From the sequence record SRR20825006_2405: 20,000 nucleotides of DNA; one strand, 5' to 3'. The notes under the pieces were generated by a model, which saw only the letters and a program-made list of their open reading frames with translations, had not been told where the DNA came from and searched no databases. Positions within the stretch are counted from its first letter, which is position 1, and the number at the start of each line of letters is the position of its first letter. Position numbers and translations under genes: made by a program. Shown here one piece after another: positions 2,495 to 20,000 of the stretch.

Positions 2495-2551
2495 AGAAAT
2501 AACTAAACTTACTAACTCAAATATTTTGATGTGCTACAAACAAGTAGCTCA

Positions 2552-4348: not shown

Positions 4349-4359
4349 TTTTACTTGTA

Positions 4360-5910: not shown

Positions 5911-5920
5911 AGCTTTTGTT

Positions 5921-8900
5921 TTATATTTTAATATTGACACCCAATGTGTATACTCCTGGTATTGGGTAAGTCTGATTGTCCCTTCCATCTTGCACCTCCG
6001 GAGTGAAACCGTTATAATTAAATAAGGTAAGAGGTCTCTCCGCTGTCACATAAAATCGTATTTGTGGGCTGAACTTCCCTGTCAATTCTGGTAGGGTATA
6101 TCCCAGAGTTACATTTTGCAACCTCACGAAATCACCTTTTTCAACAAAGAAGCTATTGAGGAACTGATTGCTCCATGGGTTTCTGATACCTCTTGCAGAA
6201 GGATAGGAATTGGTAGAGCCAGCACTGGTCCAACGGTTTACTGCAAAATCCCTATCTATGTTCGGGTCAGGGGTTTGACGAATTGCGAATCGTTTTTGAT
6301 TGGCAATAACATTTCCTCCTTGTCCTATTACATTTAAGGAGAAATCCCATGCCTTGTAATTGAGACCAAGATTGAATCCAAAAGTATAGGTGGGTATGTA
6401 CGACCCTAAATCGACACGGTCTTGCGCATCTATCATCATATCTCCATTGTGGTCCACGAACCTAAAATCGCCAGGTTCAACAGTCAAACCATTAGCTATA
6501 GCAGTTTGAGCAGCTGGGTCATTTTGTATCTCTTCTGGTGTTTGGTACACCCCAGCAACCTCAAGTCCGAAGAAAGGATTTATAGTTCCCCCGACCACGG
6601 TCCTTTGTGCAACATCGCCCCCTGAAGTCAAATTTTCCTGGCCTTTAAGGTCCAGTACTTCATTTTTAAGGGTTGAAAAGTTTGCACCTATATTGTAACT
6701 GAAATTGTCTGAAACCTTCTTGTTCCAATTCAACACCACTTCAAATCCTGTATTCCTTATTTTTCCAACATTCTGCCTAGTGGTTCCCGGCACTAACAAT
6801 CTGGAAACTGGAATAACCGCGTCCCGAGTATCCCTTCTAAAGTAATCGGCCTCCATGGACAATTGATTGTTGAACATTCTTGCCGTTATACCCACATTGG
6901 TCTCTGCCGTTACTTCCCATTTAAGAGCTTCAAAATCGCTACTGGTGACCTGCCCGGGATATGGGGTGTCTCCAAATGCCGCAACCACTTCCTCCGAAGT
7001 AATACCTCCTGAACTGGATGCCACGTTGGCGTTCCCCAATTCACCCCAGCTTCCTCTAAACTTTAGAAAATTGATTGCATTGGTTTCAGGAAAAAAAGAT
7101 TCTTCGGAAATTACCCAACCAGCACCAATTGTTGGAAAATACCCCCATTTCTCTTGATACTTACTGGTTCCATCCGCACGTACCGTACCATATAGAAGGT
7201 ATCGGTCATCAAAATTATAGGCAATCCGGCCAAAATAGGAAAAGAAATATTCCCTTGCACCGTCGTCACCCGTAACCCTAACGCGGTCGTTATCCACACT
7301 GGTATCGATAGTATCGGCCAAATCCAAATAATAGGATTCATCCCCAATTCCCGGGCCATTGGGGAAATTCAATCCTTTTACTTCCAAGAGTTCAAAAGAT
7401 CTATCCCTAAATGCAGTACCTGCCAAAACGGTCAAGTTATGTTTTCCAAAACTGTCGTTATAAGTTAAAGTATTGTCCCAGGTCTGTTCTGAAAAATTTT
7501 CGGTTCTTTTTATCAATTCTGCATTTTCCCTAAAGGCATCTCCATTTCCAAAAAAGTAAGGAAGTCTTACTTCTCTAACTTCCAAAGTTTCATAGTTGTG
7601 GTAATACGCTGTCTTAAATGTTAATTTATCCGGAACTAGTTCATAGCTCAAGTCAATGGTCATCAATGTATTCCTTGTCTTGTTTCTATTTTGCGTATTT
7701 TCCATTATTGGGAAAGGGTTTTGGGTGCCCCTATATCCTAAATCCTGTGCATTGGCATAAGGTCTTGGGTAGGCCTCTGTTTTGGAAGGATCCAGAACAG
7801 GCATAACGGGTACTGCAAAATATGCCAGTGCAAAAGCAGTGTCTTCTGGCCTAAATCTGGTAGCATTGCTAAAAAGAGTGGACACTCCTACGCTTAGACG
7901 ATCACTAACATCAAAATTCAATTTGCTCCGAATATTGAATCGTTCATAATCGTTCTTCATTTTAAGTATCCCTTCCTGTTCAAAATAGTTCAAGCCAACA
8001 GAATAAGTAATATTTTCCGATCCACCGGCTACACCAAAACTATGGTTTTGCTGTAGGGCATGCCTAAGAATCAAATCGTACCAATCCGTATTAACGTTTG
8101 GAACATTGGGATTAATCCTACTTCTACCATATCGTTGTATGGCATTTTCAATGTATTGTGCCTCAGCTGCCGACCCCGATTCCCTAGCTAAGTTTACAAA
8201 CTGTTCCGAATTGGAAAGTTTCACCAAGTTTTGGGCCACTTGGACCCCTTGATAACCGCTATAAGTAATCTGAGGCTTTTGATTTGGCCTACCTGATTTG
8301 GTTTCGATCAATACAACACCATTTGCAGCACGAACACCATAAATAGCAGCCGCGGAAGCATCTTTAAGTACAGAAATACTTTCTATATCCTCCGTATTCA
8401 AAAAATCGATGTCGTCGAAAAAAGTACCATCCACAACATAGAGCGGATTGGATGCCCCCCCTACATATGAACCGATACCTCTTACCCGAATAGTAGGACC
8501 GGTACCTGGTGCACCACTACTTACCACCTGTAAACCCGCCACCTTACCTTGAAGAGCCTGCATAGCGGCACCGGAAGGGGTTCGGGCTATATCTTCAGAT
8601 TTCACAGTTGCAATGGAACCTGTTAAATCAGCTTTCTTCTGTGTTCCATAGCCGACCACAACAACTTCATCTAGACTTTGCGTGTCTTCCTGCATCGTCA
8701 AGTTGATAGTTGTTCTATTATTAATTGGTATGGTTTGAGAGGTAAAACCAACGTAACTGAATACCAATGAACCATCTCCCGGAACGTTGTCCAAGGTATA
8801 GTTTCCATCAAAGTCCGTTTGGATTCCTGTTGTAGTACCCTCAAGTACCACACTTGCTCCAGGCAAGGGTTGCCCTTGTTCATCGGTTACCGTTCCCGAA

Positions 8901-8980
8901 ACCGTTATATTGTTTTGGGCCAAAACGACGACCTGAAACAATAAAAATGACATTAGCAAAAGTTTGCTTTTAATTTTCAT
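5921..8980 (-). CDS. susC: SusC/RagA family TonB-dependent receptor
   Basis: 1019 aa with a signal peptide, carboxypeptidase-regulatory-like N-domain (VSGTVTDEQGQPLPGASV), LDEVVVVGYGTQKK, plug signature DIESISVLKDASAAAIYGVRAANGVVLI, and a C-terminal beta-strand YTLGVNIKI. Confidence 0.95.
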   Translation of the reverse strand: MKIKSKLLLMSFLLFQVVVLAQNNITVSGTVTDEQGQPLPGASVVLEGTTTGIQTDFDGNYTLDNVPGDGSLVFSYVGFTSQTIPINNRTTINLTMQEDTQSLDEVVVVGYGTQKKADLTGSIATVKSEDIARTPSGAAMQALQGKVAGLQVVSSGAPGTGPTIRVRGIGSYVGGASNPLYVVDGTFFDDIDFLNTEDIESISVLKDASAAAIYGVRAANGVVLIETKSGRPNQKPQITYSGYQGVQVAQNLVKLSNSEQFVNLARESGSAAEAQYIENAIQRYGRSRINPNVPNVNTDWYDLILRHALQQNHSFGVAGGSENITYSVGLNYFEQEGILKMKNDYERFNIRSKLNFDVSDRLSVGVSTLFSNATRFRPEDTAFALAYFAVPVMPVLDPSKTEAYPRPYANAQDLGYRGTQNPFPIMENTQNRNKTRNTLMTIDLSYELVPDKLTFKTAYYHNYETLEVREVRLPYFFGNGDAFRENAELIKRTENFSEQTWDNTLTYNDSFGKHNLTVLAGTAFRDRSFELLEVKGLNFPNGPGIGDESYYLDLADTIDTSVDNDRVRVTGDDGAREYFFSYFGRIAYNFDDRYLLYGTVRADGTSKYQEKWGYFPTIGAGWVISEESFFPETNAINFLKFRGSWGELGNANVASSSGGITSEEVVAAFGDTPYPGQVTSSDFEALKWEVTAETNVGITARMFNNQLSMEADYFRRDTRDAVIPVSRLLVPGTTRQNVGKIRNTGFEVVLNWNKKVSDNFSYNIGANFSTLKNEVLDLKGQENLTSGGDVAQRTVVGGTINPFFGLEVAGVYQTPEEIQNDPAAQTAIANGLTVEPGDFRFVDHNGDMMIDAQDRVDLGSYIPTYTFGFNLGLNYKAWDFSLNVIGQGGNVIANQKRFAIRQTPDPNIDRDFAVNRWTSAGSTNSYPSARGIRNPWSNQFLNSFFVEKGDFVRLQNVTLGYTLPELTGKFSPQIRFYVTAERPLTLFNYNGFTPEVQDGRDNQTYPIPGVYTLGVNIKI

Positions 8981-9050
8981 AATTGTGCAAAAATAGAGTT
9001 AGATTTTTACTAAATTAATAAAGAGTGTGTCGATGGCAGGCTGATTGGAA

Positions 9051-9170
9051 TACATAATAAATACATCATTTTTAAAATGCTTTGAAAGCCTTGTTTCACA
9101 GCGTTTGCAGTATACTCTCTTTATTTTGATGTAAAAAAAATTAACATAGTGATGTAGTCTTGATGTAGTC
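9051..9170. promoter_or_regulatory. Candidate operator array of TGATGTA heptamers upstream of susC
   Basis: TGATGTAGTC tandem at 9150-9159 and 9161-9170 (11-bp period), a single TGATGTA at 9127-9133, and an opposite-orientation pair TACATAA 9051-9057 / TACATCA 9062-9068 (also 11-bp period). Confidence 0.6.
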
Positions 9171-9215
9171 AAAAAAACTGCGCCAACCACTTTTAAAACT
9201 CTTATATTACAGGTT

Positions 9216-11969
9216 TTAAAAAGTGATGAGAAAGTTGGAAAGATTATCCGAACTATCCATATCGAGCTTTTTTCGGAGACGGTATCGATGTATTTCCACC
9301 CCTCTAACGGTTATCCCCATCAACGGTGCGATTTCCTTTGTAGAAAGATTCATTTTTAGGTAAGCACATAGCTTTAGATCTTTTGGGGTCAAAGACGGGT
9401 AGGATTTCAACAATCGCTCAAAGAAATCTTGGTGCAATTCCTTGAAATTTACTTCAAAACGTCTCCAATCCTCGGTATCTTCTATGGAACTGTTCAGCTT
9501 TTTTATAAATGTTCGGTATCGCTGTGAATTGGAGAACTTATCCTTGTTCATGATCAGCATATTCTTCAACTCCAAGATCATTTCGTTTTTTCGGGCAATG
9601 TTCAAGGTTGTACTGGCCAGTTCGTTCTGTTTTTGTTTTACCTCCTTGGCCAATTCCTCCTTCTCCATCTTGTCCATGCGCTCTTGCTGTTCGTGATGTA
9701 ATCGCTCCTCCAGTTCCCTATGTTTTCTTTCCAATTTCTTCCGGTTGTACCTTCTTACCAAGTAAATGGCCAAAAATCCTAAAGCAGCATAGAAGAACAG
9801 ACTCCACCAAGAAAAGTACCACGGTGGTGATATGGTAAAATTAAGCTGTTTAAGTTCAGAAGTGGTGGTGTCCATGCCCGCCGTGGCAATCTTGAAGGTG
9901 TATTCCCCATAGGGCAGGTTTTGAAAATTGATGGCACCGCCTTCCACATATTGGGAGTATTCTTTGGGCCCTTCCAATTTGTAATAGTAATGTGGGTATA
10001 TGTACTCGGGCGAAGCCACTTCGATGGTTATGGACTGTGCGTATCGAAATGGCACTTCAATATTATCATCCATTACGGAATGCTTGCTTTCTTGATCTTT
10101 AAAAACGATAAAGCTTGGGGTCGGAAGCTTTTCTTGTTTAGAAATTTCCTTTACATTGATCTTGGCAAATCCATCTATAAGGGTGATGTAAGAGGTGCTA
10201 TCGTTTACCTTGACCAAGTTTTGAGAGTCCGGTGCCAAACGTTCCCGTAATGGCAGATCGGTAAGCATTAAACTGTCTCCCTTCAGGTCGGTATATATAA
10301 TGGCCTTTTGTTCATCATCATCCACGAACCAAAAATATTCTTCATCAAAAAACAACAACTCCTTGTTCTTATAATGCTTGAATTCCTCAAACCTTTCAAT
10401 TTTATCACCAATAGGATTGTAGGTAAACCAATTGCCCTCGCTATTGAGCACAATATGATTTTTGATGTTGTACAACTTTGCATTGTACTCGCTGGGCGCA
10501 TCTTTTTGCTTGAATTTTTGGACTTTGTCAATCTTGTTGTACTCAGCCCCTTTAAAATGAATTCTTGAAAAACCCTTGTACGGATGTGCCGTCCAGAGAA
10601 TATTGGGTGTTTCAAAACACAACTGTTTCACGGGCTCATCTACACCTTCAATCTTGACTACGCTCCACGTTCCATCTTCAAGTTTGGTGAATTTGGCAAG
10701 TCCATTGTATGTACCTTGAACATAGGTAGATTTCTTGTCCGGCACTTTAATCATCTGATAACCACCGGCAACCTCACTGATGAGCTCAAAACTGTTTTTG
10801 GACACTTTAAAGGTTCCCCGGGTATGCCCACAGAGCAAATCCCCCTCGATCACTTCCAAATCCCATACATGACCCTGTGAGCCGTTCACGAACTTAAGCT
10901 GGCTGCCATCAAAATAAAAAACTCCTGTGTTGCTTCCCAGAAATAATGTACCATTATACCAAGCAATATCGTAGACCATTCCCAGCGAACCGGTATAATC
11001 CGTAAAGTATGTTATGGGATTGTTCAGCTTCGCCCTCGCCATTCCATTGTCCAGTCCCAGCCAGAGTAGATCCTTATACAATAATGAGGAAAGCACTGTA
11101 TTGTTCTGAAGCCCGGATTCCCGATTTAAAACATTGTACTTACCCGATTCGGAATTATACAGGTACATTCCATTTTTAATGGTTCCAAAGCCCAAGAGGT
11201 TTTCTCCCAAAAGGGTTATTTTGTTTAATTGGTGTTCCTTGAGGTCATCGTTGATAGATGCCTGCCATGGAGTCAACTGTTTCCCATCATATAAAAAACA
11301 CCCACTTAGTTTGGTGCCTATCAGTAAATTTCCTCCAAAAATAGCTATGTCATTAATGGTTTTCCCTGTCAATATATCATGGCCCGGTAAAGGGAGATAG
11401 GTATCTCCTTGGATTTCAAAAAGTCCAACAAATCCTCCAGCGACTATCAATTTACCGTTGAACTCGATAAGGTCCGAGACCACAAAGGGCGGGTCTATAA
11501 CCGTAATCTTATCATCTGCATAACAATAAATGGCCGAAAAGGAACGGAACATGACCTTACCGTCCGATGATTGAAAAATTTCCCAGAATTCTTCATTTGT
11601 AAACGTATGATTTTTGATAAGGTGAGTCAATGAGGTATAGGCCAGTTCACCAAACTCGTTTTTGGTCCAATAACCAAATTCTTCATAAGATCCGGTATAA
11701 ACCTTATCGCCAATGCTTTTCACAGACCTTATGATCGTATTGTTGGGTAGTTTGTTCAACGTCCATTGTTCACCATTATAATGCAACAGACCTTTGTTGT
11801 TCGCCACAAACAACTCTCCATTTTCATTGATAGAAACATCCCAGTTTTTGGTGCCTCCCTTATAATCCAACAATTGATAATTTTGGATGGGCGGTAACAA
11901 CTGTTGCCCGTTGACCGATAAACAGACAACTAAAAACAAAATGGATTTCATCCTAAGTAACACTGGCAT
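9216..11969 (-). CDS. Membrane-spanning PUL regulator: periplasmic beta-propeller sensor, Y_Y_Y domain, TM helix, coiled coil, LuxR-type HTH
   Basis: Reg_prop-like repeats (GLQNNTVLS, LWLGLDNG), Y_Y_Y domain (YYYKLEG...FQNLPYGEYTFKI), PPWYFSWW plus a TM helix, a charged coiled coil, and a C-terminal LTPKDLKLCAYLKMNLSTKEIAPLMGITVRGVEIHRYRLRKKL. The start is uncertain (ATG 11969 or 11951; TTG 11990). Confidence 0.88.
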   Translation of the reverse strand: MPVLLRMKSILFLVVCLSVNGQQLLPPIQNYQLLDYKGGTKNWDVSINENGELFVANNKGLLHYNGEQWTLNKLPNNTIIRSVKSIGDKVYTGSYEEFGYWTKNEFGELAYTSLTHLIKNHTFTNEEFWEIFQSSDGKVMFRSFSAIYCYADDKITVIDPPFVVSDLIEFNGKLIVAGGFVGLFEIQGDTYLPLPGHDILTGKTINDIAIFGGNLLIGTKLSGCFLYDGKQLTPWQASINDDLKEHQLNKITLLGENLLGFGTIKNGMYLYNSESGKYNVLNRESGLQNNTVLSSLLYKDLLWLGLDNGMARAKLNNPITYFTDYTGSLGMVYDIAWYNGTLFLGSNTGVFYFDGSQLKFVNGSQGHVWDLEVIEGDLLCGHTRGTFKVSKNSFELISEVAGGYQMIKVPDKKSTYVQGTYNGLAKFTKLEDGTWSVVKIEGVDEPVKQLCFETPNILWTAHPYKGFSRIHFKGAEYNKIDKVQKFKQKDAPSEYNAKLYNIKNHIVLNSEGNWFTYNPIGDKIERFEEFKHYKNKELLFFDEEYFWFVDDDEQKAIIYTDLKGDSLMLTDLPLRERLAPDSQNLVKVNDSTSYITLIDGFAKINVKEISKQEKLPTPSFIVFKDQESKHSVMDDNIEVPFRYAQSITIEVASPEYIYPHYYYKLEGPKEYSQYVEGGAINFQNLPYGEYTFKIATAGMDTTTSELKQLNFTISPPWYFSWWSLFFYAALGFLAIYLVRRYNRKKLERKHRELEERLHHEQQERMDKMEKEELAKEVKQKQNELASTTLNIARKNEMILELKNMLIMNKDKFSNSQRYRTFIKKLNSSIEDTEDWRRFEVNFKELHQDFFERLLKSYPSLTPKDLKLCAYLKMNLSTKEIAPLMGITVRGVEIHRYRLRKKLDMDSSDNLSNFLITF

Positions 11970-12063
11970 TCTCGTTGATTTATCGGTCAAAGATCTTTCT
12001 AAACCATGAATTTACAAAACTGCCTTTGGAAATAGAGCGTTACCTTATGCACATGCATGAAAA

Positions 12064-12672
12064 TTATAATTCGATTGTCCTAAATGTCAAATTGATTCTG
12101 GGAGTACGCACTTTCTTTGTTGGCGGTAAACGGTGTAGCCAATGTGTTTGTGTCTCACCCTTCATTACCAATAAGCTACCATGACCCAGCCATAATTCCA
12201 CCTTTTCTTTGGTGCTTTTATGTTTGAAGACAAATTTACGTTCCACTCCAAAACTCAACGAGGCTATGGCTCCCTCTTGTTTTAATTCCTTTTCATTGTC
12301 GGAATGCCAGCCCATACCTTCTTCACCCGAATGGTACACATTGAGCAAACATGAATTATAGGTTTCCATGGAAAGGCTCTCCGTCAATTTTTTAAGTTCC
12401 ATTAACTCGGGAGTCCAAAACAATGCCCTCTTTGTGCTGTTGGAATAAGTGTACTCAAAAGGTTTATCACCAAACCAAGCCACTTTTCTCTTGGTTACTA
12501 TGCGCTTGCCGAACATATGTACCACATCGTGTTCCCAAGGAATGGTATTGAGCAGTTGTTCGAAGTAAAAATCAGCTTTTTCCAGTGCTACAATAGGTCC
12601 GAAATAATTCACGGTGCCGTCCTTGGGCAGTATATTCTGATTCGGGTCTATCTGATTCCTGAATAAATCCAT
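12064..12672 (-). CDS. alkB: Alpha-ketoglutarate/Fe(II)-dependent dioxygenase, AlkB family (ALKBH2/3-like alkylation repair)
   Basis: 202 aa with NSCLLNVY, iron ligands WHSD and HRLP, and the C-terminal RINLTFR 2-oxoglutarate-binding motif. Confidence 0.9.
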   Translation of the reverse strand: MDLFRNQIDPNQNILPKDGTVNYFGPIVALEKADFYFEQLLNTIPWEHDVVHMFGKRIVTKRKVAWFGDKPFEYTYSNSTKRALFWTPELMELKKLTESLSMETYNSCLLNVYHSGEEGMGWHSDNEKELKQEGAIASLSFGVERKFVFKHKSTKEKVELWLGHGSLLVMKGETQTHWLHRLPPTKKVRTPRINLTFRTIEL

Positions 12673-12690
12673 CTTCTGTCCTTTGCATTT

Positions 12691-13647
12691 TTAACGGGAA
12701 AGCCTTTTTTGACTTTTCTCCAATATTTCGGCAACCCGCTCCCTTAGCACTTCCGGCTCAATAATTTTGGCATAGTCACCAAACATAAGGTACCAGCGGG
12801 AAAAACCATTTTTCCAATCGGTCGTCATAAAAGTCATTTCAACTTGGTCTCCCTTTTCTTCGCTGGCAACCAAGCCATAATGCTTGGTTTGACCTCTTAT
12901 ATACTTGGCCACGGACTTCTCCACCAATATTTTTACCTTGGTTTTGGAAACTTCCTCTTTTTTTTTCCTGTGCTCATCAATGGTGCCGTGTTCCAATAAG
13001 AAATCAAGCGAAGTCCTTGCTATTTTATGGATTCTATCCGTTCTAAAATGGCGATAATCGGTCCTCAGATGACAATAACCCAAAATGTACCAAAATCCAT
13101 TTTCGTTAAAAAGTCCAACAGGCTCTATGTGTCTCTCTAAGGGTGCCTCTTCCCGTAACGATTCATATCTCAAAAACACTTGTTTCCGCTCTGCAATGCT
13201 TTCGAACAAAATTTCAAGGGCATTGGGCACCTTATCATTGAACAAAACTTGCCCTGGCACTATGGAAACTTGGGATTCCAATGCTTCCACCCAATCCTTT
13301 TCCTTGCCCCGAAGAACCGATTTCAACTTGAACATTGCAGATTCGTAGTAAGCACCAAGGGACTTATCCGTAAATTGTTGCATCAATTTTTCCGCTGCCA
13401 CAAAGCTCCCCGCCTCTTCGCGTGTAAACATGACCGGGGGCAATCGATACCCCTCCATAATGGAATATCCAACACCTGCCTCGCTAATAATGGGGACTCC
13501 AGAGGCTTCCAAAGTTCTCACGTCCCGGTAAATGGTACGCAAGCTTACCTCAAAGCGGTCCGCAAGTTCCTGTGCCTTTACAATCCGTTTGGTCTGCAAC
13601 TGTATTAAAATAGCAACTATCCTATCAAAACGTTTTACGGTGTCCAT
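12691..13647 (-). CDS. YafY-like HTH_11 + WYL + WCX transcriptional regulator
   Basis: wHTH AQELADRFEVSLRTIYRDVRTL, GVGY wing, LPPVMFT, WYL domain (RHIEPVGL, WYILGYCHLRTDYRHFRTDRI) and WCX C-terminus (IIEPEVLRERV). Start set at MDTVKRFDR (13647; alternative 13653) because a TATCTTTG box lies inside the longer ORF. Confidence 0.9.
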   Translation of the reverse strand: MDTVKRFDRIVAILIQLQTKRIVKAQELADRFEVSLRTIYRDVRTLEASGVPIISEAGVGYSIMEGYRLPPVMFTREEAGSFVAAEKLMQQFTDKSLGAYYESAMFKLKSVLRGKEKDWVEALESQVSIVPGQVLFNDKVPNALEILFESIAERKQVFLRYESLREEAPLERHIEPVGLFNENGFWYILGYCHLRTDYRHFRTDRIHKIARTSLDFLLEHGTIDEHRKKKEEVSKTKVKILVEKSVAKYIRGQTKHYGLVASEEKGDQVEMTFMTTDWKNGFSRWYLMFGDYAKIIEPEVLRERVAEILEKSQKRLSR

Positions 13648-13672
13648 TCCCATAATTGCGTGAGCTATCTCC

Positions 13673-13680
13673 CAAAGATA
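13673..13680 (-). promoter_or_regulatory. Bacteroidota -7 promoter element (TATCTTTG) for the WYL gene
   Basis: Exact TAnnTTTG match about 20-25 nt upstream of the probable start codons. No clear -33 element. Confidence 0.45.
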
Positions 13681-13748
13681 GGATTTCAATCCGTGGATGG
13701 AAGATGTTTTCCTGCTCATATTATATCATTTATACGCATTGTCTCCAT

Positions 13749-13783
13749 CAAAATTATTTGGAACATATGACAGCAGCTTGTCA
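13749..13783 (-). promoter_or_regulatory. Leftward promoter: palindromic box plus -7 element (drives WYL gene-alkB)
   Basis: Minus strand reads TGACAagctgcTGTCA (13783-13768), an 11-nt spacer, then TAATTTTG (13756-13749). Confidence 0.7.
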
Positions 13784-13815
13784 ACAGTATTTTTTTTGAA
13801 TTCAATTTTTACTAC

Positions 13816-13850
13816 TGACACGGGGCTGTCACACACCCCTCCTAATTTTG
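13816..13850 (+). promoter_or_regulatory. Rightward promoter: palindromic box plus -7 element (drives the DinB-family operon)
   Basis: Plus strand reads TGACAcggggcTGTCA (13816-13831), an 11-nt spacer, then TAATTTTG (13843-13850), 35 nt before ATG 13886. Confidence 0.75.
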
Positions 13851-13885
13851 TTTTCAGAAACAATAAACCTTTAAATCACAATCAA

Positions 13886-14383
13886 ATGGAAAACACCATT
13901 AATGAACAGACAACGACCCAAGTAATGACACCTGAACAGTTTTTGGAACAATACCAAGGACACAGAAGACTTACCCGAAGGGTTATCGAGGCCTTTCCTG
14001 AAAAAGAGTTTTTTAATTACAGTATTGGAGGGATGCGTCCTTTTGCTGAAATGACCAAAGAACTTTTTGCCATTGCAGTTCCAGGACTTACTGAAATCGT
14101 ATCAGGAAAAACCGTTGAATTTGACGAACATCGTGACTACGGTAGCACCAAGGCCGATTTTTTAAAAAAATGGGACCAGGATACCGAAGAAATCAATAAA
14201 CTTTGGAGCCAAATTAGCCTCGAGAGATTTCAAGAGGAGATAAAACTTTTTGGGCAGTATGAGGGTACCGTCTTATCCAGTATACAGTATTTTGTGGATA
14301 ACGAGATTCACCACCGTGCCCAAGGTTATGTTTACCTGCGTGCCCTTGATATTGAACCTCCATTTTTTTACGACCGAAGCTAA
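13886..14383 (+). CDS. DinB/YfiT-like four-helix-bundle protein (not DNA polymerase IV)
   Basis: 165 aa from MENTINEQ, preceded by an A-rich leader. Motifs HRRLTRRVIEAFPE, GGMRPFAE and EIHHRAQGYVYLRALDIEPP. Confidence 0.85.
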   Translation: MENTINEQTTTQVMTPEQFLEQYQGHRRLTRRVIEAFPEKEFFNYSIGGMRPFAEMTKELFAIAVPGLTEIVSGKTVEFDEHRDYGSTKADFLKKWDQDTEEINKLWSQISLERFQEEIKLFGQYEGTVLSSIQYFVDNEIHHRAQGYVYLRALDIEPPFFYDRS

Positions 14384-14647: not shown

Positions 14648-17600
14648 TTATAGATTAACTTTTCCCTTAAGTTCGTTGAATTGGGCCAGCAATTCTTGAT
14701 AACGGTCTTTTTCCTCTTGTCCAGGTTCTTTGTCCGCACTACTTAAAATATAATATAGATACGAAATTTGAGCTACCATAACCACTTCGGGATAGGCTCC
14801 TTCATCGTTTTTTAGCTCCTTTAAAACATCTTTATAGGGCTGAAGCTGGGCTTCGCTCGCATTTGACTTTTCCAACTCCTTAATCTTCTTTTCGACCTTA
14901 TCCTGAAATTTTCGAGTTTCCGACAACAAATCAATTACCTTAAACTGAAGTTCCTGTTGCTCCTTCATGTTGGCCAAAGAAATTCCGTCTTCTTCAAGCT
15001 TCGGGTCCATGAGCACTTCAAAACTTTTCTCGAGTGATTGCTCCCCTACGGTGAGTTTCGCGGTATACGTGCCGGGCAATACCATAGGACCATTTCCAAA
15101 TCTCCTTCTTTTATTTTGGTCCCATGCTCCTTTTTGTTGCATGTTCCACTCAAAACGATTGAGTCCCTTTTTAGCTTCCAATTTCTCGTTCATATAAACA
15201 AAAGTCATGCTAAGGCTCATGTCCTCGACCAGCTCCGTAGCGGCCTTCAATTTTGTGGAATCGCTTACAATAGTCGAAACTTCTTTTCCTTGAGCATCCA
15301 AAATCTGTAGACTGATTCCTTCCTCTATATCCGATGGTAGGTAGTAATCAATAATTACGCTGGTAGATGGGTATTGTGGAAAGTCTCCACCGCCCCACGG
15401 AGTCTGGTACCTGTATGTATCATCAGGTTTAAACAAAACCGGAGTCTCTCCCAATTGTGTAATGTTTTCATCGGTTAAGGTGGTAACTTTATCCAGAATC
15501 CAAAAGCCACGTCCCATAGTACTTAAAATCAAATCTCCACGGAACAAAATGATATCGGTAATCGGTGTCACGGGCAGATTTTGTTGGAATTTTTTCCATG
15601 ACCCGCCATCATCAAAAGAAACAAACATTCCGTACTCGGTACCGGCATACAAAAGCCCCTTGCGTAAGGGGTCCTCTCGCAATACCCTTGCCGTATGGTC
15701 GGATGGTATCCCGTTGGATTCGGTACTGATCAGCTCCCAGCTTTCGCCATAATTATCGGTTTTGTAGAAGTAAGGCGTGGTATCTCCCAATAAATGGCGA
15801 TCTACAGCGATGTAGGCAGTTGCCGGGTCAAACTGTGATGGTTCCACGGACTCTACCCTACCGCCCTTTGGTAATTTTTTAGGTGTAACGTTCTTCCAAG
15901 TGGAACCACCATCTTTCGTGACCGAAATGACACCATCGTTGGACCCTGTCCATATCACACCTTTGCTTATCTTGGATTCCCTGATGGAATATAGCGTACT
16001 GTAATATTCTTCACCGGTAATGTCCCTTGTTATGGGGTTACCAGAAATCACTTGTTTATCAGGGTCGTTCTCCGTTAGGTCTGGAGATATGATTTCCCAG
16101 TTTTTACCTCCATCATTTGTTTTATGTAGAAATTGGGAGCCCATGTACACCACTTCAGGGTCGAATGGGGAAACATGGATAGGCGCCACACGTTGGAACC
16201 TATACTTTAAATCTTTAGGGTTATGCCCGTAAATGTTGGATGCCCCGATGGAATATTCACGGCTTTGCCCTGTTTTTTTACTGTACACGCTAAAGCGTCC
16301 CTTACAGTTGTTGTAAACGATATAATGATTGCCCGGCATTGGGATTACTGGCCCGGTTTCACATCCTCCAACATCCATCATTATACTTCCATTGGCAGGG
16401 GAAGTTGCTGTGGGCGCCATACTTGGGATGGCTATCGTTGTGTTATCCTGCTGTGCGCCATACACCCAGTAAGGGTATTGATCATCCACCGCTACTTGAT
16501 AAATCTCGGCCGTAGGCTGGTTGTATTGGGTAGACCATGTTTTTCCTCCGTTGTGGGATATATTTGCCCCACCATCGTTACATTGAACCAACAGGTCTGG
16601 GTTATCCGGATTGAGCCAAATATCATGGTTGTCTCCATGGGGAACACTCATACGCCTCCAAGATTTACCGCCATCGGTGGATTTTATCAAAGGATTGGCA
16701 TTGGAATACACAATATCTGGATTGGTAGGGTCCAGCTCAATATTGGTGTAATAAAAAGGTCGGTTGACCAGTCTTTCATCATCCGAAACATGTTCAAAGG
16801 ATTTACCTTGGTCTACGGATTTGTACAATCCCGTATCTTCATTCGGTGCTTCAACAACCGCATAAAGTATTCTGGAGTCCGATGGAGAAACGGCTAAATC
16901 AATCTTTCCAATCAATCCCGTTGGAAGTCCTTCCTCCAATTTCTCCCAATTTTTTCCGCCATTAACGGATTTATAAATTCCACCTTCACTGTTCTCCCCA
17001 CCTGAATCAATGGTCCAAGGGGTACGTCTTGCTTTCCAGGCAGCGGCATAGACGACATTCGGGTTTCCGGGAAGCAGTTCCAAATCGGCAAAACCTGTCT
17101 CTTCTGAAACGAACAAAACCTTTTCCCAAGTTTCGCCGCCATCCGTAGTTTTAAATATTCCTCTTTCTTTATTTGATTTGAATGCGTTTCCAATGGCGGC
17201 TACCCACACAATATTGCTATTGGTCGGGTCTATTTCCACGGCACCAATTTGGCCCGCATTTTCCAGCCCGATGTGTTCCCACGTTTTTCCGGCATCAATG
17301 GATTTGTACATTCCCTTTCCTTCAATGATGTTGCTACGGATACCATCGGATCCTGTACCCACATAAATAATATTGGGGTCGTTGGCGGCCACTTCAATAG
17401 CTCCAATAGAAGGCGTTTTGAAAAATCCATCGGAAATATTGTGCCAACTGGTTCCGTAGTCCTCGGTTTTCCAGACACCGGCACCGGTAGCTCCAAAATA
17501 AAAAGTACCCGGCAACATGGCTGTTCCGGTAACTGTGGTTACCCTACCTCCCCTAGCGGGACCTATGGTACGGTATTCCAAGGCTTCAAAATCTTGTGCA

Positions 17601-17662
17601 AAGGTGGCACAACTCAATAAAAATGTAAAAAGGAAATAAGATAAGCGCTGTTTCAAAGTCAT
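14648..17662 (-). CDS. Exported VPS10/sortilin-like BNR (Asp-box) beta-propeller protein, putative glycosyl hydrolase-like
   Basis: 1004 aa with a signal peptide (TFA-Q), N-terminal YRTIGPARGGRV, 11 [S/T]xDxGxxW-type Asp-boxes, an FlgD-like Ig segment (GLNRFEWNM...PGTYTAKL) and a helical C-terminus. Confidence 0.8.
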   Translation of the reverse strand: MTLKQRLSYFLFTFLLSCATFAQDFEALEYRTIGPARGGRVTTVTGTAMLPGTFYFGATGAGVWKTEDYGTSWHNISDGFFKTPSIGAIEVAANDPNIIYVGTGSDGIRSNIIEGKGMYKSIDAGKTWEHIGLENAGQIGAVEIDPTNSNIVWVAAIGNAFKSNKERGIFKTTDGGETWEKVLFVSEETGFADLELLPGNPNVVYAAAWKARRTPWTIDSGGENSEGGIYKSVNGGKNWEKLEEGLPTGLIGKIDLAVSPSDSRILYAVVEAPNEDTGLYKSVDQGKSFEHVSDDERLVNRPFYYTNIELDPTNPDIVYSNANPLIKSTDGGKSWRRMSVPHGDNHDIWLNPDNPDLLVQCNDGGANISHNGGKTWSTQYNQPTAEIYQVAVDDQYPYWVYGAQQDNTTIAIPSMAPTATSPANGSIMMDVGGCETGPVIPMPGNHYIVYNNCKGRFSVYSKKTGQSREYSIGASNIYGHNPKDLKYRFQRVAPIHVSPFDPEVVYMGSQFLHKTNDGGKNWEIISPDLTENDPDKQVISGNPITRDITGEEYYSTLYSIRESKISKGVIWTGSNDGVISVTKDGGSTWKNVTPKKLPKGGRVESVEPSQFDPATAYIAVDRHLLGDTTPYFYKTDNYGESWELISTESNGIPSDHTARVLREDPLRKGLLYAGTEYGMFVSFDDGGSWKKFQQNLPVTPITDIILFRGDLILSTMGRGFWILDKVTTLTDENITQLGETPVLFKPDDTYRYQTPWGGGDFPQYPSTSVIIDYYLPSDIEEGISLQILDAQGKEVSTIVSDSTKLKAATELVEDMSLSMTFVYMNEKLEAKKGLNRFEWNMQQKGAWDQNKRRRFGNGPMVLPGTYTAKLTVGEQSLEKSFEVLMDPKLEEDGISLANMKEQQELQFKVIDLLSETRKFQDKVEKKIKELEKSNASEAQLQPYKDVLKELKNDEGAYPEVVMVAQISYLYYILSSADKEPGQEEKDRYQELLAQFNELKGKVNL

Positions 17663-17688
17663 GAGTTAGTTAGAAGTTGGTTTGTTTC

Positions 17689-17696
17689 CAAATCTA
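17689..17696 (-). promoter_or_regulatory. Bacteroidota -7 element (TAGATTTG) for the VPS10 gene
   Basis: TAnnTTTG match 26 nt upstream of ATG 17662. Confidence 0.45.
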
Positions 17697-17794
17697 CTAA
17701 ATACCTAGCCAATCTAAAATGGTATGATAGAGGAATTACAGGCTTTATTATTTAAAACAATGTTATTTACGAATTCTACAAACTAAACTGGTCG

Positions 17795-18226
17795 TTAATC
17801 CATCCTTTCATATTTGTAGCTGCATCCTTCTATGCAGATAACACTGGTTGGGGATAAAAGAAAGTGGTCATTTTCAAATTCGATATGGAAGGTAATCAAG
17901 CCTTCTTCGTTTTCGGCTACCAGCTCCGTATCTCCACAATCATAATCCAGTACCAGAGTTTCACCATCAAGGATATACCCTTCTTCTTTACATTCTGGGT
18001 AATTGGTCGAAGTGAAACTACCATCAGAAAGGAATTCAATTTCTTCACCATCTTCCACATCTACCCAGTATTGTGGTCCGCCCGAACTAATGTATGCCGC
18101 GGTCAATTTCCATTTTCCTAAAATGGAAGTATCTGTTGGGTTTGGAGTACCATTATTATCGTTGTTACATGCCGAAAATTGACTCAATAATACAATTACG
18201 ACCAAACTCGAGATTAACTTTTCCAT
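17795..18226 (-). CDS. Hypothetical lipoprotein, lipocalin-like beta-barrel
   Basis: Start MEKLISS (18226), a hydrophobic stretch, FSAC lipobox-like site, ILGKWKL (lipocalin GxW motif), IEFLSDGSF and a C-terminal CIEGC. Confidence 0.7.
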   Translation of the reverse strand: MEKLISSLVVIVLLSQFSACNNDNNGTPNPTDTSILGKWKLTAAYISSGGPQYWVDVEDGEEIEFLSDGSFTSTNYPECKEEGYILDGETLVLDYDCGDTELVAENEEGLITFHIEFENDHFLLSPTSVICIEGCSYKYERMD

Positions 18227-18282
18227 AGGTTCCTTTTTGTCTAAAGATGAGGATTTGTCAATTAGTTGCGTCATCCAAGCCT

Positions 18283-19320
18283 CTACTCCAAGTCTTTAAA
18301 GATCCTTGATTCAGTAGTCCCCTTTCGAAAAATATGGTGCTGCGTAGCAGTAAAATAGTCCCTAAAAATCTGATTCAGTAGGTGACCTTCTGTACTGGCC
18401 AAAATTCCCAAACTTGGGTAGACCATCAAAATACTTTGAGAAATCAATTGTACCGATTTAGATGCTTCATGATGAACTCGATTTATGAACTTTTCGGTAA
18501 ACCCGCGGCCTTGTTCAATACCTTCTTCAATTTCTTTGGCATAGTCTATCAACAAGGTATCCGCCCTTTTTAGATTTGAAACGAGTGGGACGGTATATTC
18601 TTCAGACGCGCTTACATTTCTGGCTTCTTCCAGAAAATGCTCTGCCATTCCAACATAATTGACCCACAAAGTAAGATCGGCAAACAACGAAAAATGGATC
18701 TTAAAAATCGGATGTGGCTGATGCACTTGGTTATAGACAAAACTATATTTTTCATGAACCCATTTACTTTCCACTTTAAATGATTCCGTTGCGGTTGCCT
18801 TTAAACCCATAGTTTCCCAATCCCGTATAATTTCTACTTGACTTTTTTCCAATACAAAGGAGCGCACCATGGGCGTACCGTTCTCTTGAAGAATATCATT
18901 GCCATTCTCCTGAATTTTTGCGTTTAATGTGAAATGGGTAAGGTAGGGAGCACCCGTTGCGTATTTCCATGTTCCGGAAATAATATATCCTTCGGAATCC
19001 CTTTCTGCTGTTCCAAAGACGCCGCCGCTTCCCCCAAAACAAACAGGTTTTGCGGCATCGAGAAAAATATCGTCGGCTACCTCCTTTTTTAGATTCCCTA
19101 TAAAAAAATTGGCTCCGCTGCACAGGGTAACCGTCCAGCCAAGGCTACCATCTGTTTTAGCGAGCAATCGAAGTTTTTTCAGACCTTCGGAGAACGACAT
19201 TTCCAGTCCCCCATACTTTTTGGGCACCCAAAGATTCCAAAGGTTTTCTTTGGCTATCCACTCCAACACTTCTTGGCTAAAAATCGGTTTTTTAAAATCC
19301 AACGCATCAAGCTCCTGCAT
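18283..19320 (-). CDS. Acyl-CoA-dehydrogenase-fold protein, flavin-dependent hydroxylase-like (HsaA/HpaH type)
   Basis: Motifs VPKKYGGLE, DGSLGW, ISGTWKYATG, DWETMGLKATATESF and IFRDYFTATQH. The likely ATG at 19320 overlaps the upstream transporter gene by 14 nt. Confidence 0.75.
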   Translation of the reverse strand: MQELDALDFKKPIFSQEVLEWIAKENLWNLWVPKKYGGLEMSFSEGLKKLRLLAKTDGSLGWTVTLCSGANFFIGNLKKEVADDIFLDAAKPVCFGGSGGVFGTAERDSEGYIISGTWKYATGAPYLTHFTLNAKIQENGNDILQENGTPMVRSFVLEKSQVEIIRDWETMGLKATATESFKVESKWVHEKYSFVYNQVHQPHPIFKIHFSLFADLTLWVNYVGMAEHFLEEARNVSASEEYTVPLVSNLKRADTLLIDYAKEIEEGIEQGRGFTEKFINRVHHEASKSVQLISQSILMVYPSLGILASTEGHLLNQIFRDYFTATQHHIFRKGTTESRIFKDLE

Positions 19321-19906
19321 AGGTCTCGCTGTTTTTCTTATCAATGATTTTTTTCCATTTGATGTATCCCGAAATTGCAACGGTGAACAAGAAAGCGGTC
19401 AGCCCTGCGTAGATATACAACTCCTTGTAAATCAATAATGGGATGGAAATAAGGTTACTGATGTTCAAATAGACCCAGTTCTCAATCTTCCGTTTGGCCA
19501 TCAACCACATACCGGCCCATGCAAAAGCGCAGACCACGGCATCCCAATACGGCACATCGGAATCTGTATGTTGCCCTAGCCAATAAGCCATCAAAATAAA
19601 ACAGCCCAGTACAATGCCCCCAGCTATGCCATGCTCCTTTTTGGTGGAATAAGAGATGGGGGCTTCTTGTTTTTGCTTGCCCATCTTCCAATAAAACCAG
19701 CCGTAAATGCTCATGACCAGATAATACATATTGAGCAAGATATCGGCATATAATTGGGATTGATAGAGCACCCAAATACTAATCAAAATCGCGATAATGC
19801 CGAAAAGATAGTTGTGGATATTGTTCTGTCTGGCCAATAACACCTGAACCACCCCAAAAAGGGTTCCGATCCATTGTAACACCACGAGTTGAGAAAAGTA
19901 TTCCAT
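19307..19906 (-). CDS. pnuC: PnuC-family vitamin transporter, probably thiamine-specific (PnuT)
   Basis: 199 aa from MEYFSQL, multi-TM, with PnuC motifs YGWFYW, PYWDA, WLMAKRKIENW and GYIKW. It lies downstream of a TPP riboswitch. Confidence 0.88.
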   Translation of the reverse strand: MEYFSQLVVLQWIGTLFGVVQVLLARQNNIHNYLFGIIAILISIWVLYQSQLYADILLNMYYLVMSIYGWFYWKMGKQKQEAPISYSTKKEHGIAGGIVLGCFILMAYWLGQHTDSDVPYWDAVVCAFAWAGMWLMAKRKIENWVYLNISNLISIPLLIYKELYIYAGLTAFLFTVAISGYIKWKKIIDKKNSETYAGA

Positions 19907-19971
19907 TCTTTTAAGTAACCTATATTTAAAATCATGGGTACCCAAATTGGAATACGGGCAAACTTGCCTAA

Positions 19972-20000
19972 ATCCCTACGCCAGCATTACCTGGATCAGG
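19972..20000 (-). ncRNA. TPP riboswitch (THI-box), 3' half; 5' half outside the window
   Basis: Minus strand CCTGATCCAGGTAATGCTGGCGTAGGGA matches the conserved TPP aptamer P4/P5 core (CCUGAU-stem-UAAU-stem-GCGNAGGGA). P5 pairs CCAG with CTGG. Confidence 0.9.

What the first reader, a model, noticed from the sequence alone, without database searches (positions are those of the whole stretch)
18283..20000. TPP riboswitch controls pnuT coupled to an uncharacterised flavin-hydroxylase-like enzyme: possible unknown thiamine salvage or modification step
Seen: a TPP aptamer core, then a PnuC-family gene, then an ACAD-fold gene whose ATG overlaps the transporter's last 14 nt, which suggests translational coupling. 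Known: TPP-regulated PnuC homologues are thiamine transporters (PnuT), which in Bacteroidota typically come with a TonB receptor and/or thiamine pyrophosphokinase. Neither lies in this operon. I know of no ACAD-fold enzyme in established thiamine biosynthesis or salvage pathways. Inference: the enzyme acts on thiamine, a degradation product or a precursor imported by PnuT under B1 limitation. No flavin reductase partner is visible in the window.
Basis: partly seen in the sequence, partly recalled or inferred. Interest (0 to 1): 0.72.

Follow-up and report, generated by a model that had tools for sequence, protein, structure and literature searches.

The report
Vitamin-B1-switched transporter paired with orphan flavoenzyme
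A vitamin-B1-sensing RNA switch controls a two-gene unit, a small transporter plus a flavin-oxygenase-like enzyme of unknown substrate, that is kept together across many marine Bacteroidota and probably marks an undescribed step in how these bacteria acquire vitamin B1.

Summary
A TPP riboswitch runs over the window end, so only its 3' 45 nt (19956-20000) are inside. It is followed by a start-codon-sequestering hairpin, a PnuC-family gene (19307-19906) and a 345-aa ACAD-fold gene (18283-19320) that overlaps it by 14 nt.

The enzyme's nearest solved relatives are group D flavin monooxygenases (XiaF, Rv3094c, HsaA), not acyl-CoA dehydrogenases.

In 80 related loci the transporter sits directly upstream of the enzyme in 77, and a TPP aptamer precedes it in 76. 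No other neighbour is conserved. The pairing persists in other Bacteroidota families at 30-45% identity, once as TPP-TonB receptor-PnuC-enzyme, with the enzyme where Bacteroides has thiamine pyrophosphokinase.

This genome lacks ThiC, ThiG and TPK. Four carrier genomes also lack ThiE and ThiM, which argues against a role in HMP or HET precursor salvage.

The best reading is that the enzyme processes a thiamine-like compound imported by this PnuC paralogue. The substrate is unknown. Eight full-text searches found no report of the pairing. The closest analogy is the orphan OarX-FmnO pair.

The parts
19956..20000 (-). 3' part of a TPP riboswitch aptamer (P4/P5 and the 3' strand of P1). The whole aptamer would be window 19956-20062 and runs off the window end.
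   Evidence: RF00059: 32.2 bits, E 6.2e-5 for the truncated part. The full copy in the genome scores 46.1 bits, E 1.2e-7, below GA 54.3. Orthologous copies score 55.7-62.8 bits. 10 of 22 pairs have compensatory changes in 30 copies.
19898..19955 (-). Expression platform. A hairpin pairs 19948-19955 (GUAUUCCA) with 19898-19905 (UGGAAUAC) and covers the likely AUG at 19904-19906. It is the inferred translational off-switch.
   Evidence: MFE fold (z -1.43, not significant alone). Across 76 orthologous loci the AUG is fully paired to an upstream partner in 63, against 36% of shuffled-upstream controls. The upstream arm differs between lineages in step with the first codons (read by eye).
19307..19906 (-). 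PnuC-family facilitator, 199 aa from ATG 19906 (the longest ORF starts at TTG 19945). This is the paralogue called PnuC2 in this report.
   Evidence: Pfam PF04973 E 2.6e-50 and TIGR01528 at 96 bits. Orthologues at 64% identity or more occur in 8 of 151 Flavobacteriaceae genera. It is 47-62% identical to the enzyme-linked PnuC of other families but 25-32% to the housekeeping PnuC1.
18283..19320 (-). 345-aa ACAD-fold protein resembling the oxygenase component of a group D flavin monooxygenase. Its ATG overlaps the end of pnuC2 by 14 nt.
   Evidence: PDB by sequence: XiaF 1.2e-10; with the family profile 6.6e-18, and a full-length alignment to Rv3094c. NCBIfam best hits are HsaA 1.9e-15 and C2-HPAH 1.1e-13, far below their cut-offs. 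Model pLDDT 70. Foldseek: XiaF 9.8e-16, Rv3094c, HsaA.
17795..18274 (-). 159-aa lipocalin-like lipoprotein gene, 8 nt downstream of the enzyme gene. It may be co-transcribed here but is not part of the conserved cassette.
   Evidence: Weak Pfam Lipocalin_4 hit, E 0.0037, below cut-off. It is found next to the enzyme only in the 4 closest of 80 loci.

Best explanation
This is a self-contained two-gene cassette switched on by vitamin B1 (TPP) shortage.

When TPP is low, the riboswitch leaves the start codon of the first gene accessible. When TPP is bound, a hairpin sequesters the AUG. The position of the hairpin and its conservation are shown; the switching itself is inferred.

The first gene encodes a distinct PnuC-family facilitator (PnuC2). 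It lets a thiamine-type compound cross the inner membrane. In this genome a separate TPP-controlled TonB-dependent receptor would first bring the compound across the outer membrane.

The second gene is translationally coupled to the first. It encodes a cytoplasmic ACAD-fold protein of the group D (two-component) flavin monooxygenase type. I infer that it uses reduced flavin from an unlinked reductase to oxidise the imported compound. That would convert a thiamine vitamer or damaged form into usable thiamine and make uptake irreversible. A kinase still to be identified, and then ThiL, would take thiamine to TPP.

What is shown: the anatomy, the fold, the regulation signal and the conserved gene pairing. 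What is inferred: flavin use, the oxygenase chemistry, the substrate and the direction (salvage).
For: Pairing. pnuC2 lies directly upstream of the enzyme gene in 77 of 80 related loci, and a TPP aptamer precedes it in 76 of 80. By a simple start-codon rule the two ORFs overlap by 8-50 nt in 74 of 78 pairs, and by exactly 14 nt in 39. Among 871 neighbouring ORFs, only these two genes are conserved across the loci.

Depth of the pairing. In a phylum sample, 10 of the 25 genomes with a homologue have PnuC adjacent, at 30-45% enzyme identity. TPP aptamers lie upstream in L122, L125, L126 and L127 and, weakly, in L123. One genome has TPP-TonB receptor-PnuC2-enzyme. All 23 PnuC-adjacent homologues fall in one clade of 29 (SH-aLRT 88, quick tree).

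Enzyme type. The nearest solved relatives are flavin monooxygenases that hydroxylate aromatics or oxygenate sulfur. The C-terminal motif FRDYFTATQHH aligns with FRDAFTATAHF of Rv3094c.

Thiamine setting. This genome lacks ThiC, TPK and ThiG. It has ThiL and a TPP-controlled thiM-thiE-thiD-tenA operon. In four carrier genomes without ThiE, the only TPP riboswitches found precede this cassette and a TonB receptor.

Transcription. One metatranscriptome contig (256 nt, 100% identical) bridges the gene junction. This is a weak hint only.
Against: No substrate, product or cofactor has been tested.

The window's own aptamer scores below Rfam's gathering cut-off (46.1 vs 54.3 bits), and the enzyme's Pfam domain hits are all below their cut-offs.

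Each gene can persist without the other. PnuC2 with its riboswitch stands without the enzyme in one ThiC+ ThiE+ genome. It stands next to a broken enzyme gene in another. The enzyme stands alone in two Kriegella loci, next to a decayed pnuC2 and riboswitch in L040, and in a sister group of another family.

No flavin reductase is linked. One PF01613 protein lies on another contig.

No known thiamine derivative is recognised as needing oxygenation to become usable. In the analogous OarX-FmnO case, five candidate damage products were excluded in Corynebacterium (PMC11223231, abstract and passages read).

Presence of the cassette shows no clear relation to ThiC or ThiE status beyond small numbers. 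ThiC is in 0 of 7 carriers against 24 of 151 overall. ThiE is in 3 of 7 against 42 of 151.
Confidence: 0.5

Rival explanations
1. Detoxification. The enzyme inactivates a toxic thiamine antimetabolite or damage product that enters when the B1 uptake route is switched on. It is co-expressed with the transporter as a safeguard rather than to gain vitamin.
For: The pairing and regulation evidence is the same as for the main reading. PnuC2 can function without the enzyme in a prototroph, which fits an accessory protective role. The OarX paper says that some thiamin degradation products are toxic and that detoxification routes are poorly known (PMC11223231, introduction read).
Against: No toxic analogue is known for these habitats. 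Tight translational coupling in 74 of 78 pairs suggests stoichiometric processing of the main cargo. The enzyme also persists where pnuC2 has decayed or is absent.
Confidence: 0.2
2. Functional stand-in for thiamine pyrophosphokinase. The protein is the metabolic trap for the facilitator, either by binding thiamine tightly or by a non-oxygenase reaction. It would replace tnr3/TPK in the receptor-pnuT-tnr3 type of operon.
For: In one genome it occupies exactly the position of TPK: TPP-TonB receptor-PnuC-X. Compare the classic receptor-PnuT-TPK locus L128. TPK was found in 1 of the 12 carrier genomes tested. Four carriers keep ThiL but lack ThiE, ThiM, ThiC and TPK, so a route from thiamine to TMP or TPP is missing there.
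Against: The missing step is not specific to carriers. 100 of the 151 sampled genera lack ThiE, TPK and this enzyme alike. One carrier (G420) has both the enzyme and TPK. The fold and the conserved motifs are those of flavin monooxygenases, and no kinase family matched. A near-universal PnuC1-AAA_28 kinase cluster is a better candidate for the missing kinase.
Confidence: 0.08
3. TPP-sparing metabolism. The pair imports and oxidises a metabolite that lets the cell bypass a TPP-dependent reaction when B1 is scarce, in the way B12 riboswitches control B12-independent isozymes.
For: The riboswitch reports only TPP shortage, not the identity of the cargo. The enzyme belongs to a broad oxidoreductase superfamily.
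Against: From recall, characterised PnuC-family members carry vitamin-type cargos (nicotinamide riboside, thiamine, riboflavin). The other TPP-controlled genes in these genomes are thiamine genes or a TonB receptor. No bypass pathway genes are conserved nearby.
Confidence: 0.07
4. An ordinary acyl-CoA dehydrogenase of lipid or amino-acid catabolism that happens to sit after pnuC. This is how the databases name it.
For: Public annotations call the family acyl-CoA dehydrogenase. There are weak Pfam hits to the ACAD domains.
Against: All three Pfam hits are below their cut-offs. The best solved and curated relatives are monooxygenases, while true ACADs come far lower. The gene pairing with a TPP-controlled transporter is conserved across families, with no fatty-acid genes nearby. 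The protein is about 40-70 residues shorter than the solved relatives it matches (376-422 aa).
Confidence: 0.03

Closest known systems
OMthi-pnuT-tnr3 thiamine uptake operons of gut Bacteroidetes (Costliow and Degnan 2017, PMC5613172; passages read)
   Same: A TPP riboswitch controls a PnuC-family inner-membrane facilitator together with a cytoplasmic enzyme. A TonB-dependent receptor is also TPP-controlled. It sits in the same operon in one relative (L122) and on another contig in this genome.
   Different: The partner enzyme is an ACAD-fold, monooxygenase-like protein rather than thiamine pyrophosphokinase. The transporter is a separate paralogue, about 30% identical to a TPK-linked PnuT from the same bacterial family. 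I did not compare it with the Bacteroides protein itself.
OarX (short-chain dehydrogenase) and FmnO (predicted FMN monooxygenase): orphan genes behind TPP riboswitches in Firmicutes, Actinobacteria and Proteobacteria (Oliveira-Filho, Rodionov and Hanson 2024, PMC11223231; abstract, introduction and passages read)
   Same: Both are redox enzymes of unknown substrate tied to thiamine genes by riboswitch and gene clustering. Both are thought to act in salvage or detoxification of thiamine derivatives.
   Different: The phylum differs; that paper reports none in Bacteroidota. The partner also differs: a transporter here, OarX there. Whether FmnO shares this fold could not be tested, because its sequences are in a supplement I could not open. 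I recall it as a luciferase-like family, unverified.
Group D flavin-dependent monooxygenases with solved structures: XiaF, Rv3094c, HsaA, the C2 component of p-hydroxyphenylacetate hydroxylase, DszC
   Same: The three-domain ACAD fold. The alignment to Rv3094c is full-length, including the C-terminal FRD..TA..H motif.
   Different: Identity is only 16-20%. The protein is about 30-75 residues shorter. No reductase is adjacent. The substrate is unknown, and the strongly conserved motifs TLCSGAN(F/Y)F, GGSGG and W(K/R)YATGA are specific to this subfamily.
PnuC-NadR: a facilitator plus a kinase that traps nicotinamide riboside (recalled textbook case)
   Same: A PnuC-family facilitator is encoded with a cytoplasmic enzyme that is expected to modify the cargo after entry.
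   Different: The partner here is not a kinase. A PnuC1-AAA_28 pair of the NadR type exists separately in the same genome.

Membership tests
TPP riboswitch (Rfam RF00059) | Score at or above the family's gathering cut-off (54.3 bits) | tested here: not met
   The window's own full copy scores 46.1 bits, E 1.2e-7 genome-wide. The in-window fragment scores 32.2 bits. Orthologous copies in G074, G116, G041 and G134 score 55.7-62.8 bits, above the cut-off.
TPP riboswitch (Rfam RF00059) | Conserved core (CUGAGA; ACCUGAUC..GGAUAAUGCC..GCGUAGGGA) and helices supported by covariation | tested here: met
   The core is present in the alignment to the model. In 30 orthologous copies, 10 of 22 predicted pairs keep pairing through changes on both sides, in P2, P3 and P5.
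TPP riboswitch (Rfam RF00059) | TPP binding and ligand-dependent control of expression | not testable with these tools
   Indirect evidence only: a start-codon-sequestering hairpin in 63 of 76 loci against 36% of shuffled controls.
PnuC family (Pfam PF04973) | Profile match above the curated cut-off over the full domain | tested here: met
   171.3 bits against a cut-off of 27.3, profile positions 2-175 of 175.
PnuT (thiamine-specific PnuC homologue) | Preceded by a TPP riboswitch | tested here: met
PnuT (thiamine-specific PnuC homologue) | Orthology to a characterised or TPK-linked PnuT | tested here: not met
   It is 31% identical to the TPK-linked PnuT of L128, which is itself 29% identical to the housekeeping PnuC1. 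It forms its own group, 47-62% identical across families. It was not compared with the Bacteroides or Shewanella proteins.
PnuT (thiamine-specific PnuC homologue) | Thiamine transport | not testable with these tools
   None.
Group D (ACAD-fold, two-component) flavin monooxygenases | Three-domain ACAD fold, closest to known oxygenase components | tested here: met
   Model pLDDT 70, pTM 0.68. Foldseek probability is 1.00 for XiaF, Rv3094c, HsaA, C2-HPAH and DszC. The same ranking comes from sequence alone.
Group D (ACAD-fold, two-component) flavin monooxygenases | Acyl-CoA_dh_2 C-terminal domain with the R-D...H motif | tested here: inconclusive
   The window's own protein scores 19.8 bits against a cut-off of 22.7. 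A PnuC-linked relative scores 39 bits. The motif FRDYFTATQHH aligns to the same motif in Rv3094c and XiaF. The catalytic role of these residues is recalled, not tested.
Group D (ACAD-fold, two-component) flavin monooxygenases | Partner NAD(P)H:flavin reductase | tested here: inconclusive
   None lies in the window or in any conserved neighbourhood. One PF01613 protein sits elsewhere in the genome.
Group D (ACAD-fold, two-component) flavin monooxygenases | Binds reduced FMN or FAD and activates O2 | not testable with these tools
   None.
Acyl-CoA dehydrogenases proper | Pfam N, M and C domains above cut-off, closest to known ACADs | tested here: not met
   All three hits are below their cut-offs. 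The ACAD-type NCBIfam models score E 0.015-0.03. True ACAD structures rank below the monooxygenases.

The most novel reading that the evidence does not exclude
The enzyme catalyses an undescribed reaction of vitamin B1 acquisition in marine Bacteroidota: flavin-dependent oxidation that turns an environmental thiamine derivative, imported by a dedicated PnuC paralogue, into usable thiamine.

One chemically coherent candidate is oxidative removal of sulfur from a thiazole-2-thione form of thiamine. This comes from recalled chemistry and is untested; it would resemble the sulfur oxygenation done by Rv3094c or DszC.

If true, it would add a new vitamer to the marine B1 economy and a first ACAD-fold enzyme to thiamine metabolism.
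Probability: 0.4. Interest if true: 0.85.

Novelty: new variant of a known kind. Interest (0 to 1): 0.7.

Why it matters
Most marine Flavobacteriaceae sampled here cannot make vitamin B1. ThiC was found in 24 of 151 genera and ThiE in 42 of 151. How these bacteria obtain and activate B1 bears on marine carbon cycling and on vitamin traffic between microbes.

Thiamine salvage is admitted to be poorly charted, with many degradation products of unknown fate (PMC11223231).

This cassette offers a clean handle on the problem. It has two genes, one riboswitch and strong comparative evidence, and it occurs in cultured genera (Flagellimonas, Maribacter, Arenibacter, Salegentibacter, Roseivirga). Finding its substrate could reveal a new B1 vitamer or antivitamin in the sea, and a new reaction for a well-studied enzyme fold. 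It would also correct the misleading annotation 'acyl-CoA dehydrogenase' on well over a thousand database proteins (1206 hits at E <= 0.001).

Tried and rejected
Complex prediction of PnuC2 with the enzyme. It gives no evidence either way, and I did not pursue the question by other means.

TPK versus enzyme as alternatives. There is no overlap in the family sample (8 genomes with TPK, 7 with the enzyme, out of 151). Both are rare and 100 genera have neither, so the pattern says little.

ThiM co-occurrence. Only 2 of 7 carriers have ThiM, so the link to thiazole salvage was dropped.

The apparent ThiG hit in this genome is a nitronate monooxygenase.

RNA evidence. Of four RNA runs laid, one gave nothing. 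Two covered only the downstream lipoprotein gene. One gave a single 256-nt contig across the gene junction. Contigs cannot show a transcript, and DNA carry-over is possible.

The promoter and terminator scan of 17500-20000 gave counts at chance level. It does not model Bacteroidota promoters.

The fold of the leader RNA alone was not significant, z -1.43. The signal came only from the 76-locus comparison.

The ESM Atlas returned only generic 'acyl-CoA dehydrogenase' clusters.

The scan's earlier findings held nothing, by sequence or by words.

Literature. Eight full-text searches found no report of this pairing. The library omits most subscription journals. Rodionov et al. 2002 (JBC) was not seen and is cited from recall.

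The careful tree search did not finish, so only the quick tree was used. Two partial loci, L085 and L087, were dropped from it because their enzyme ORF is cut by the locus end.
Full report
**Anatomy**

All relevant genes read on the minus strand.

- **PnuC-family ORF.** It spans 19307-19945 (Pfam NMN_transporter, E 2.6e-50). Orthologues begin at MEY/MEF, so the likely start is the ATG at 19906, giving 199 aa.
- **Enzyme gene.** A 345-aa ORF starts at the ATG at 19320 and ends at 18283.
- **Riboswitch.** Only the 3' 45 nt of a TPP aptamer lie upstream inside the window (19956-20000; 32.2 bits, E 6.2e-5). The window is G000:C30:18423-38422. In the genome the whole aptamer is C30:38378-38484(-) and scores 46.1 bits, E 1.2e-7. 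That is under Rfam's gathering score of 54.3.
- **Downstream.** A lipocalin-like lipoprotein gene (17795-18274) follows after 8 nt, then a BNR/sortilin-repeat protein.
- **Rest of the window.** It holds a SusC/SusD polysaccharide locus, a Y_Y_Y regulator, an AlkB-like oxygenase, a WYL regulator and a DinB protein. There is no TonB receptor for thiamine, no TPK and no flavin reductase.

**Is the riboswitch real?**

Yes.

- Orthologous aptamers in four other genomes score 55.7-62.8 bits.
- In 30 aligned copies, 10 of 22 predicted pairs keep pairing through changes on both sides, in P2, P3 and P5.
- Downstream of the aptamer, a hairpin pairs 19948-19955 with 19898-19905 and covers the AUG. That fold alone is not significant (z -1.43).
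- Across 76 orthologous leaders, however, the AUG is fully paired to an upstream partner in 63. Controls with the upstream part shuffled give 36%.
- The upstream arm changes between lineages in step with the first codons (read by eye).

I infer translational control by start-codon sequestration. Ligand dependence is not shown.

**What is the enzyme?**

- Pfam gives only sub-threshold hits to the three ACAD domains.
- NCBIfam's best models are HsaA, the C2 component of p-hydroxyphenylacetate hydroxylase, SfnB and DszC. All are far below their cut-offs.
- Against solved structures the order is XiaF, Rv3094c, HsaA and C2-HPAH. True acyl-CoA dehydrogenases rank much lower.
- With the family profile, the alignment to Rv3094c is full-length. 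It includes FRDYFTATQHH against FRDAFTATAHF.
- An AlphaFold model built from a 15-sequence alignment is moderate (pLDDT 70, pTM 0.68). Foldseek gives the same relatives: XiaF 9.8e-16, probability 1.00.

The protein therefore looks like the oxygenase component of a group D flavin monooxygenase. It is about 30-75 residues shorter than its solved relatives and carries its own invariant motifs. Databases call it acyl-CoA dehydrogenase. I consider that name unsupported.

- **Close relatives.** A scan of one genome per species found 250 relatives. The best 80 loci, at 54-81% identity, were kept.
  - PnuC lies directly upstream in 77. One more locus (L040) has only a fragment, and two Kriegella loci have none.
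  - A simple pattern finds the TPP core upstream in 70. Six more have it on inspection. In five of these six (the Salegentibacter loci, not L042), and in L064, about 60-100 nt are inserted in P3. One locus is cut by its contig end. The total is 76 of 80.
  - By a simple start rule the two ORFs overlap in 74 of 78 pairs.
  - Clustering 871 neighbouring ORFs shows that nothing else is conserved. This is a mobile, self-contained two-gene cassette.
- **Distant relatives.** In 401 genomes sampled across the phylum, 25 have a homologue at E <= 1e-25, and 10 of these have PnuC adjacent.
  - That PnuC is 47-62% identical to ours but only 25-32% identical to the housekeeping PnuC.
  - TPP aptamers precede these pairs at 38.5-52.8 bits, and at 32 bits in L123.
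  - In G529 the order is TPP-TonB receptor-PnuC2-enzyme. This is the architecture of the Bacteroides OMthi-pnuT-tnr3 operon (PMC5613172, passages read), with this enzyme in the place of TPK.
- **Tree.** A quick maximum-likelihood tree puts all 23 PnuC-adjacent homologues in one clade of 29 (SH-aLRT 88). Six members of that clade have lost the linkage.

**Thiamine setting**

- **This genome** (100% complete by marker genes):
  - It has no ThiC and no TPK.
  - It has no ThiG; the one hit is a nitronate monooxygenase.
  - It has ThiL.
  - A TPP-controlled thiM-thiE-thiD-tenA-HAD operon lies on C2.
  - A TPP-controlled TonB receptor lies on C44.
- **One genome from each of 151 Flavobacteriaceae genera:**

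| Feature | Genomes with it |
|---|---|
| This enzyme, strong match | 7 (plus 2 distant paralogues) |
| PnuC2 orthologue | 8 |
| Any PnuC | 149 |
| TPK | 8 |
| ThiC | 24 |
| ThiE | 42 |
| Full-length ThiM | 5 |

- **The seven carriers.** None has ThiC or TPK. Three have ThiE and two have ThiM. All five checked have ThiL: this genome and the four carriers without ThiE. In those four, the only TPP riboswitches found precede this cassette and a TonB receptor.
  - The enzyme therefore cannot be working only on HMP or HET precursors. Its cargo must be thiamine itself or something convertible to it, or else the enzyme protects against something.
- **A caution.** 100 of the 151 genera lack ThiE, TPK and this enzyme alike. 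The missing route from thiamine to TPP is thus a general puzzle of the family, not a mark of the carriers. One carrier in another family has TPK as well. This weakens the idea that the enzyme replaces TPK.

**Exceptions**

- PnuC2 with a weak TPP aptamer (35 bits) stands without the enzyme in a ThiC+ ThiE+ genome.
- In G345 the enzyme gene is interrupted by a stop codon.
- In L040 the aptamer and pnuC2 have decayed while the enzyme ORF is intact.

Each partner can therefore outlive the other.

**Mechanism**

- **Best reading (about 0.5).** TPP shortage opens translation of PnuC2 and, by coupling, of the enzyme. PnuC2 admits a thiamine-type compound. The enzyme oxidises it with reduced flavin, making it usable and its uptake irreversible.
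- **Rivals.** Detoxification of an antivitamin (0.2). A trap or TPK stand-in (0.08). TPP-sparing metabolism (0.07). A plain acyl-CoA dehydrogenase (0.03).
- **Weak transcript evidence.** A metatranscriptome contig bridges the gene junction.

**Comparison and novelty**

The system is a variant of the known receptor-pnuT-TPK uptake operon, with a new paralogue of the transporter and a new kind of partner enzyme.

The nearest conceptual parallel is OarX-FmnO. These are orphan redox genes behind TPP riboswitches in other phyla, and their function is still unknown after five candidate substrates were excluded (PMC11223231; abstract, introduction and passages read; supplements closed, so FmnO's family could not be compared).

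Eight full-text searches found no report of this pairing. The library lacks most subscription journals, and curated regulon databases could not be consulted.

**Verdict**

Interest 0.7.

Noticed in passing
G000:C44:35058-37998 (outside the window); also L129-L141 and L144: Nearly every Flavobacteriaceae genome sampled (149 of 151) has a housekeeping PnuC. In the 16 loci fetched, it is followed by an AAA_28 (NadR-type) kinase in 13 and by DUF4301 in 14; the two are fused in G005. In 5 loci it is preceded by a small Thiamine_BP (PF01910) protein.

100 of the 151 genera lack ThiE, TPK and the enzyme studied here, and all five ThiE-lacking genomes checked for ThiL have it. This kinase is therefore a candidate for the missing thiamine kinase. 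In the carrier genomes looked at, the TPP-controlled TonB receptor lies 2.6-8 kb from this cluster.
   Followed up: partly
L048, L064, L067, L072, L076, L078 (Salegentibacter), upstream of pnuC2: These TPP aptamers carry an insertion of roughly 60-100 nt inside the P3 hairpin, yet keep both conserved cores. In three loci (L048, L052, L064) the transporter and enzyme genes are separated by 65-67 nt instead of overlapping.
   Followed up: no
L089 (G045:C18:29277-31324): A strong TPP riboswitch (64 bits) precedes a class I methyltransferase and an AIR-synthase-related (ThiL-like) gene. ThiE lies a few hundred bases further on. This is an unusual thiamine operon.
   Followed up: no
L040 (Pareuzebyella sediminis) and G345:C2:208312-208972 (L105/L121): The cassette is caught decaying in both directions. 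L040 has a degenerate aptamer and a pnuC2 fragment beside an intact enzyme ORF. G345 has an intact aptamer motif and pnuC2 beside an enzyme gene interrupted by a TAA.
   Followed up: partly
L124 (G478:C44:206000-216500): A distant homologue of the enzyme (24% identity, long branch, outside the PnuC-linked clade) lies immediately upstream of a TPP riboswitch (40.9 bits) and its TonB receptor. This may be chance or a second, independent link to thiamine.
   Followed up: no
window 1-11990 (-): A polysaccharide utilisation locus. It holds two PF10091 putative glucoamylases, a Laminin_G_3/Big_7 protein, a SusD and SusC pair, and a 924-aa Y_Y_Y/LuxR-type regulator.
   Followed up: no
window 12064-14383: A WYL-domain regulator (12691-13719, -) lies next to an AlkB-like 2OG-Fe(II) oxygenase (12064-12672, -), with a divergent DinB-family gene (13697-14383, +). 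This looks like a small DNA-damage module.
   Followed up: no
L099, L101, L102, L108 (family f12): A sister group of the enzyme has lost the PnuC link. It sits instead beside a secreted esterase-like protein (EstA_Ig_like domain plus hydrolase domains), a radical SAM protein or a GMC oxidoreductase.
   Followed up: partly
L127:3055-3154 (-): A Flavo-1 small RNA (RF01705, 51.5 bits, above cut-off) lies about 3.5 kb from the cassette in G450.
   Followed up: no
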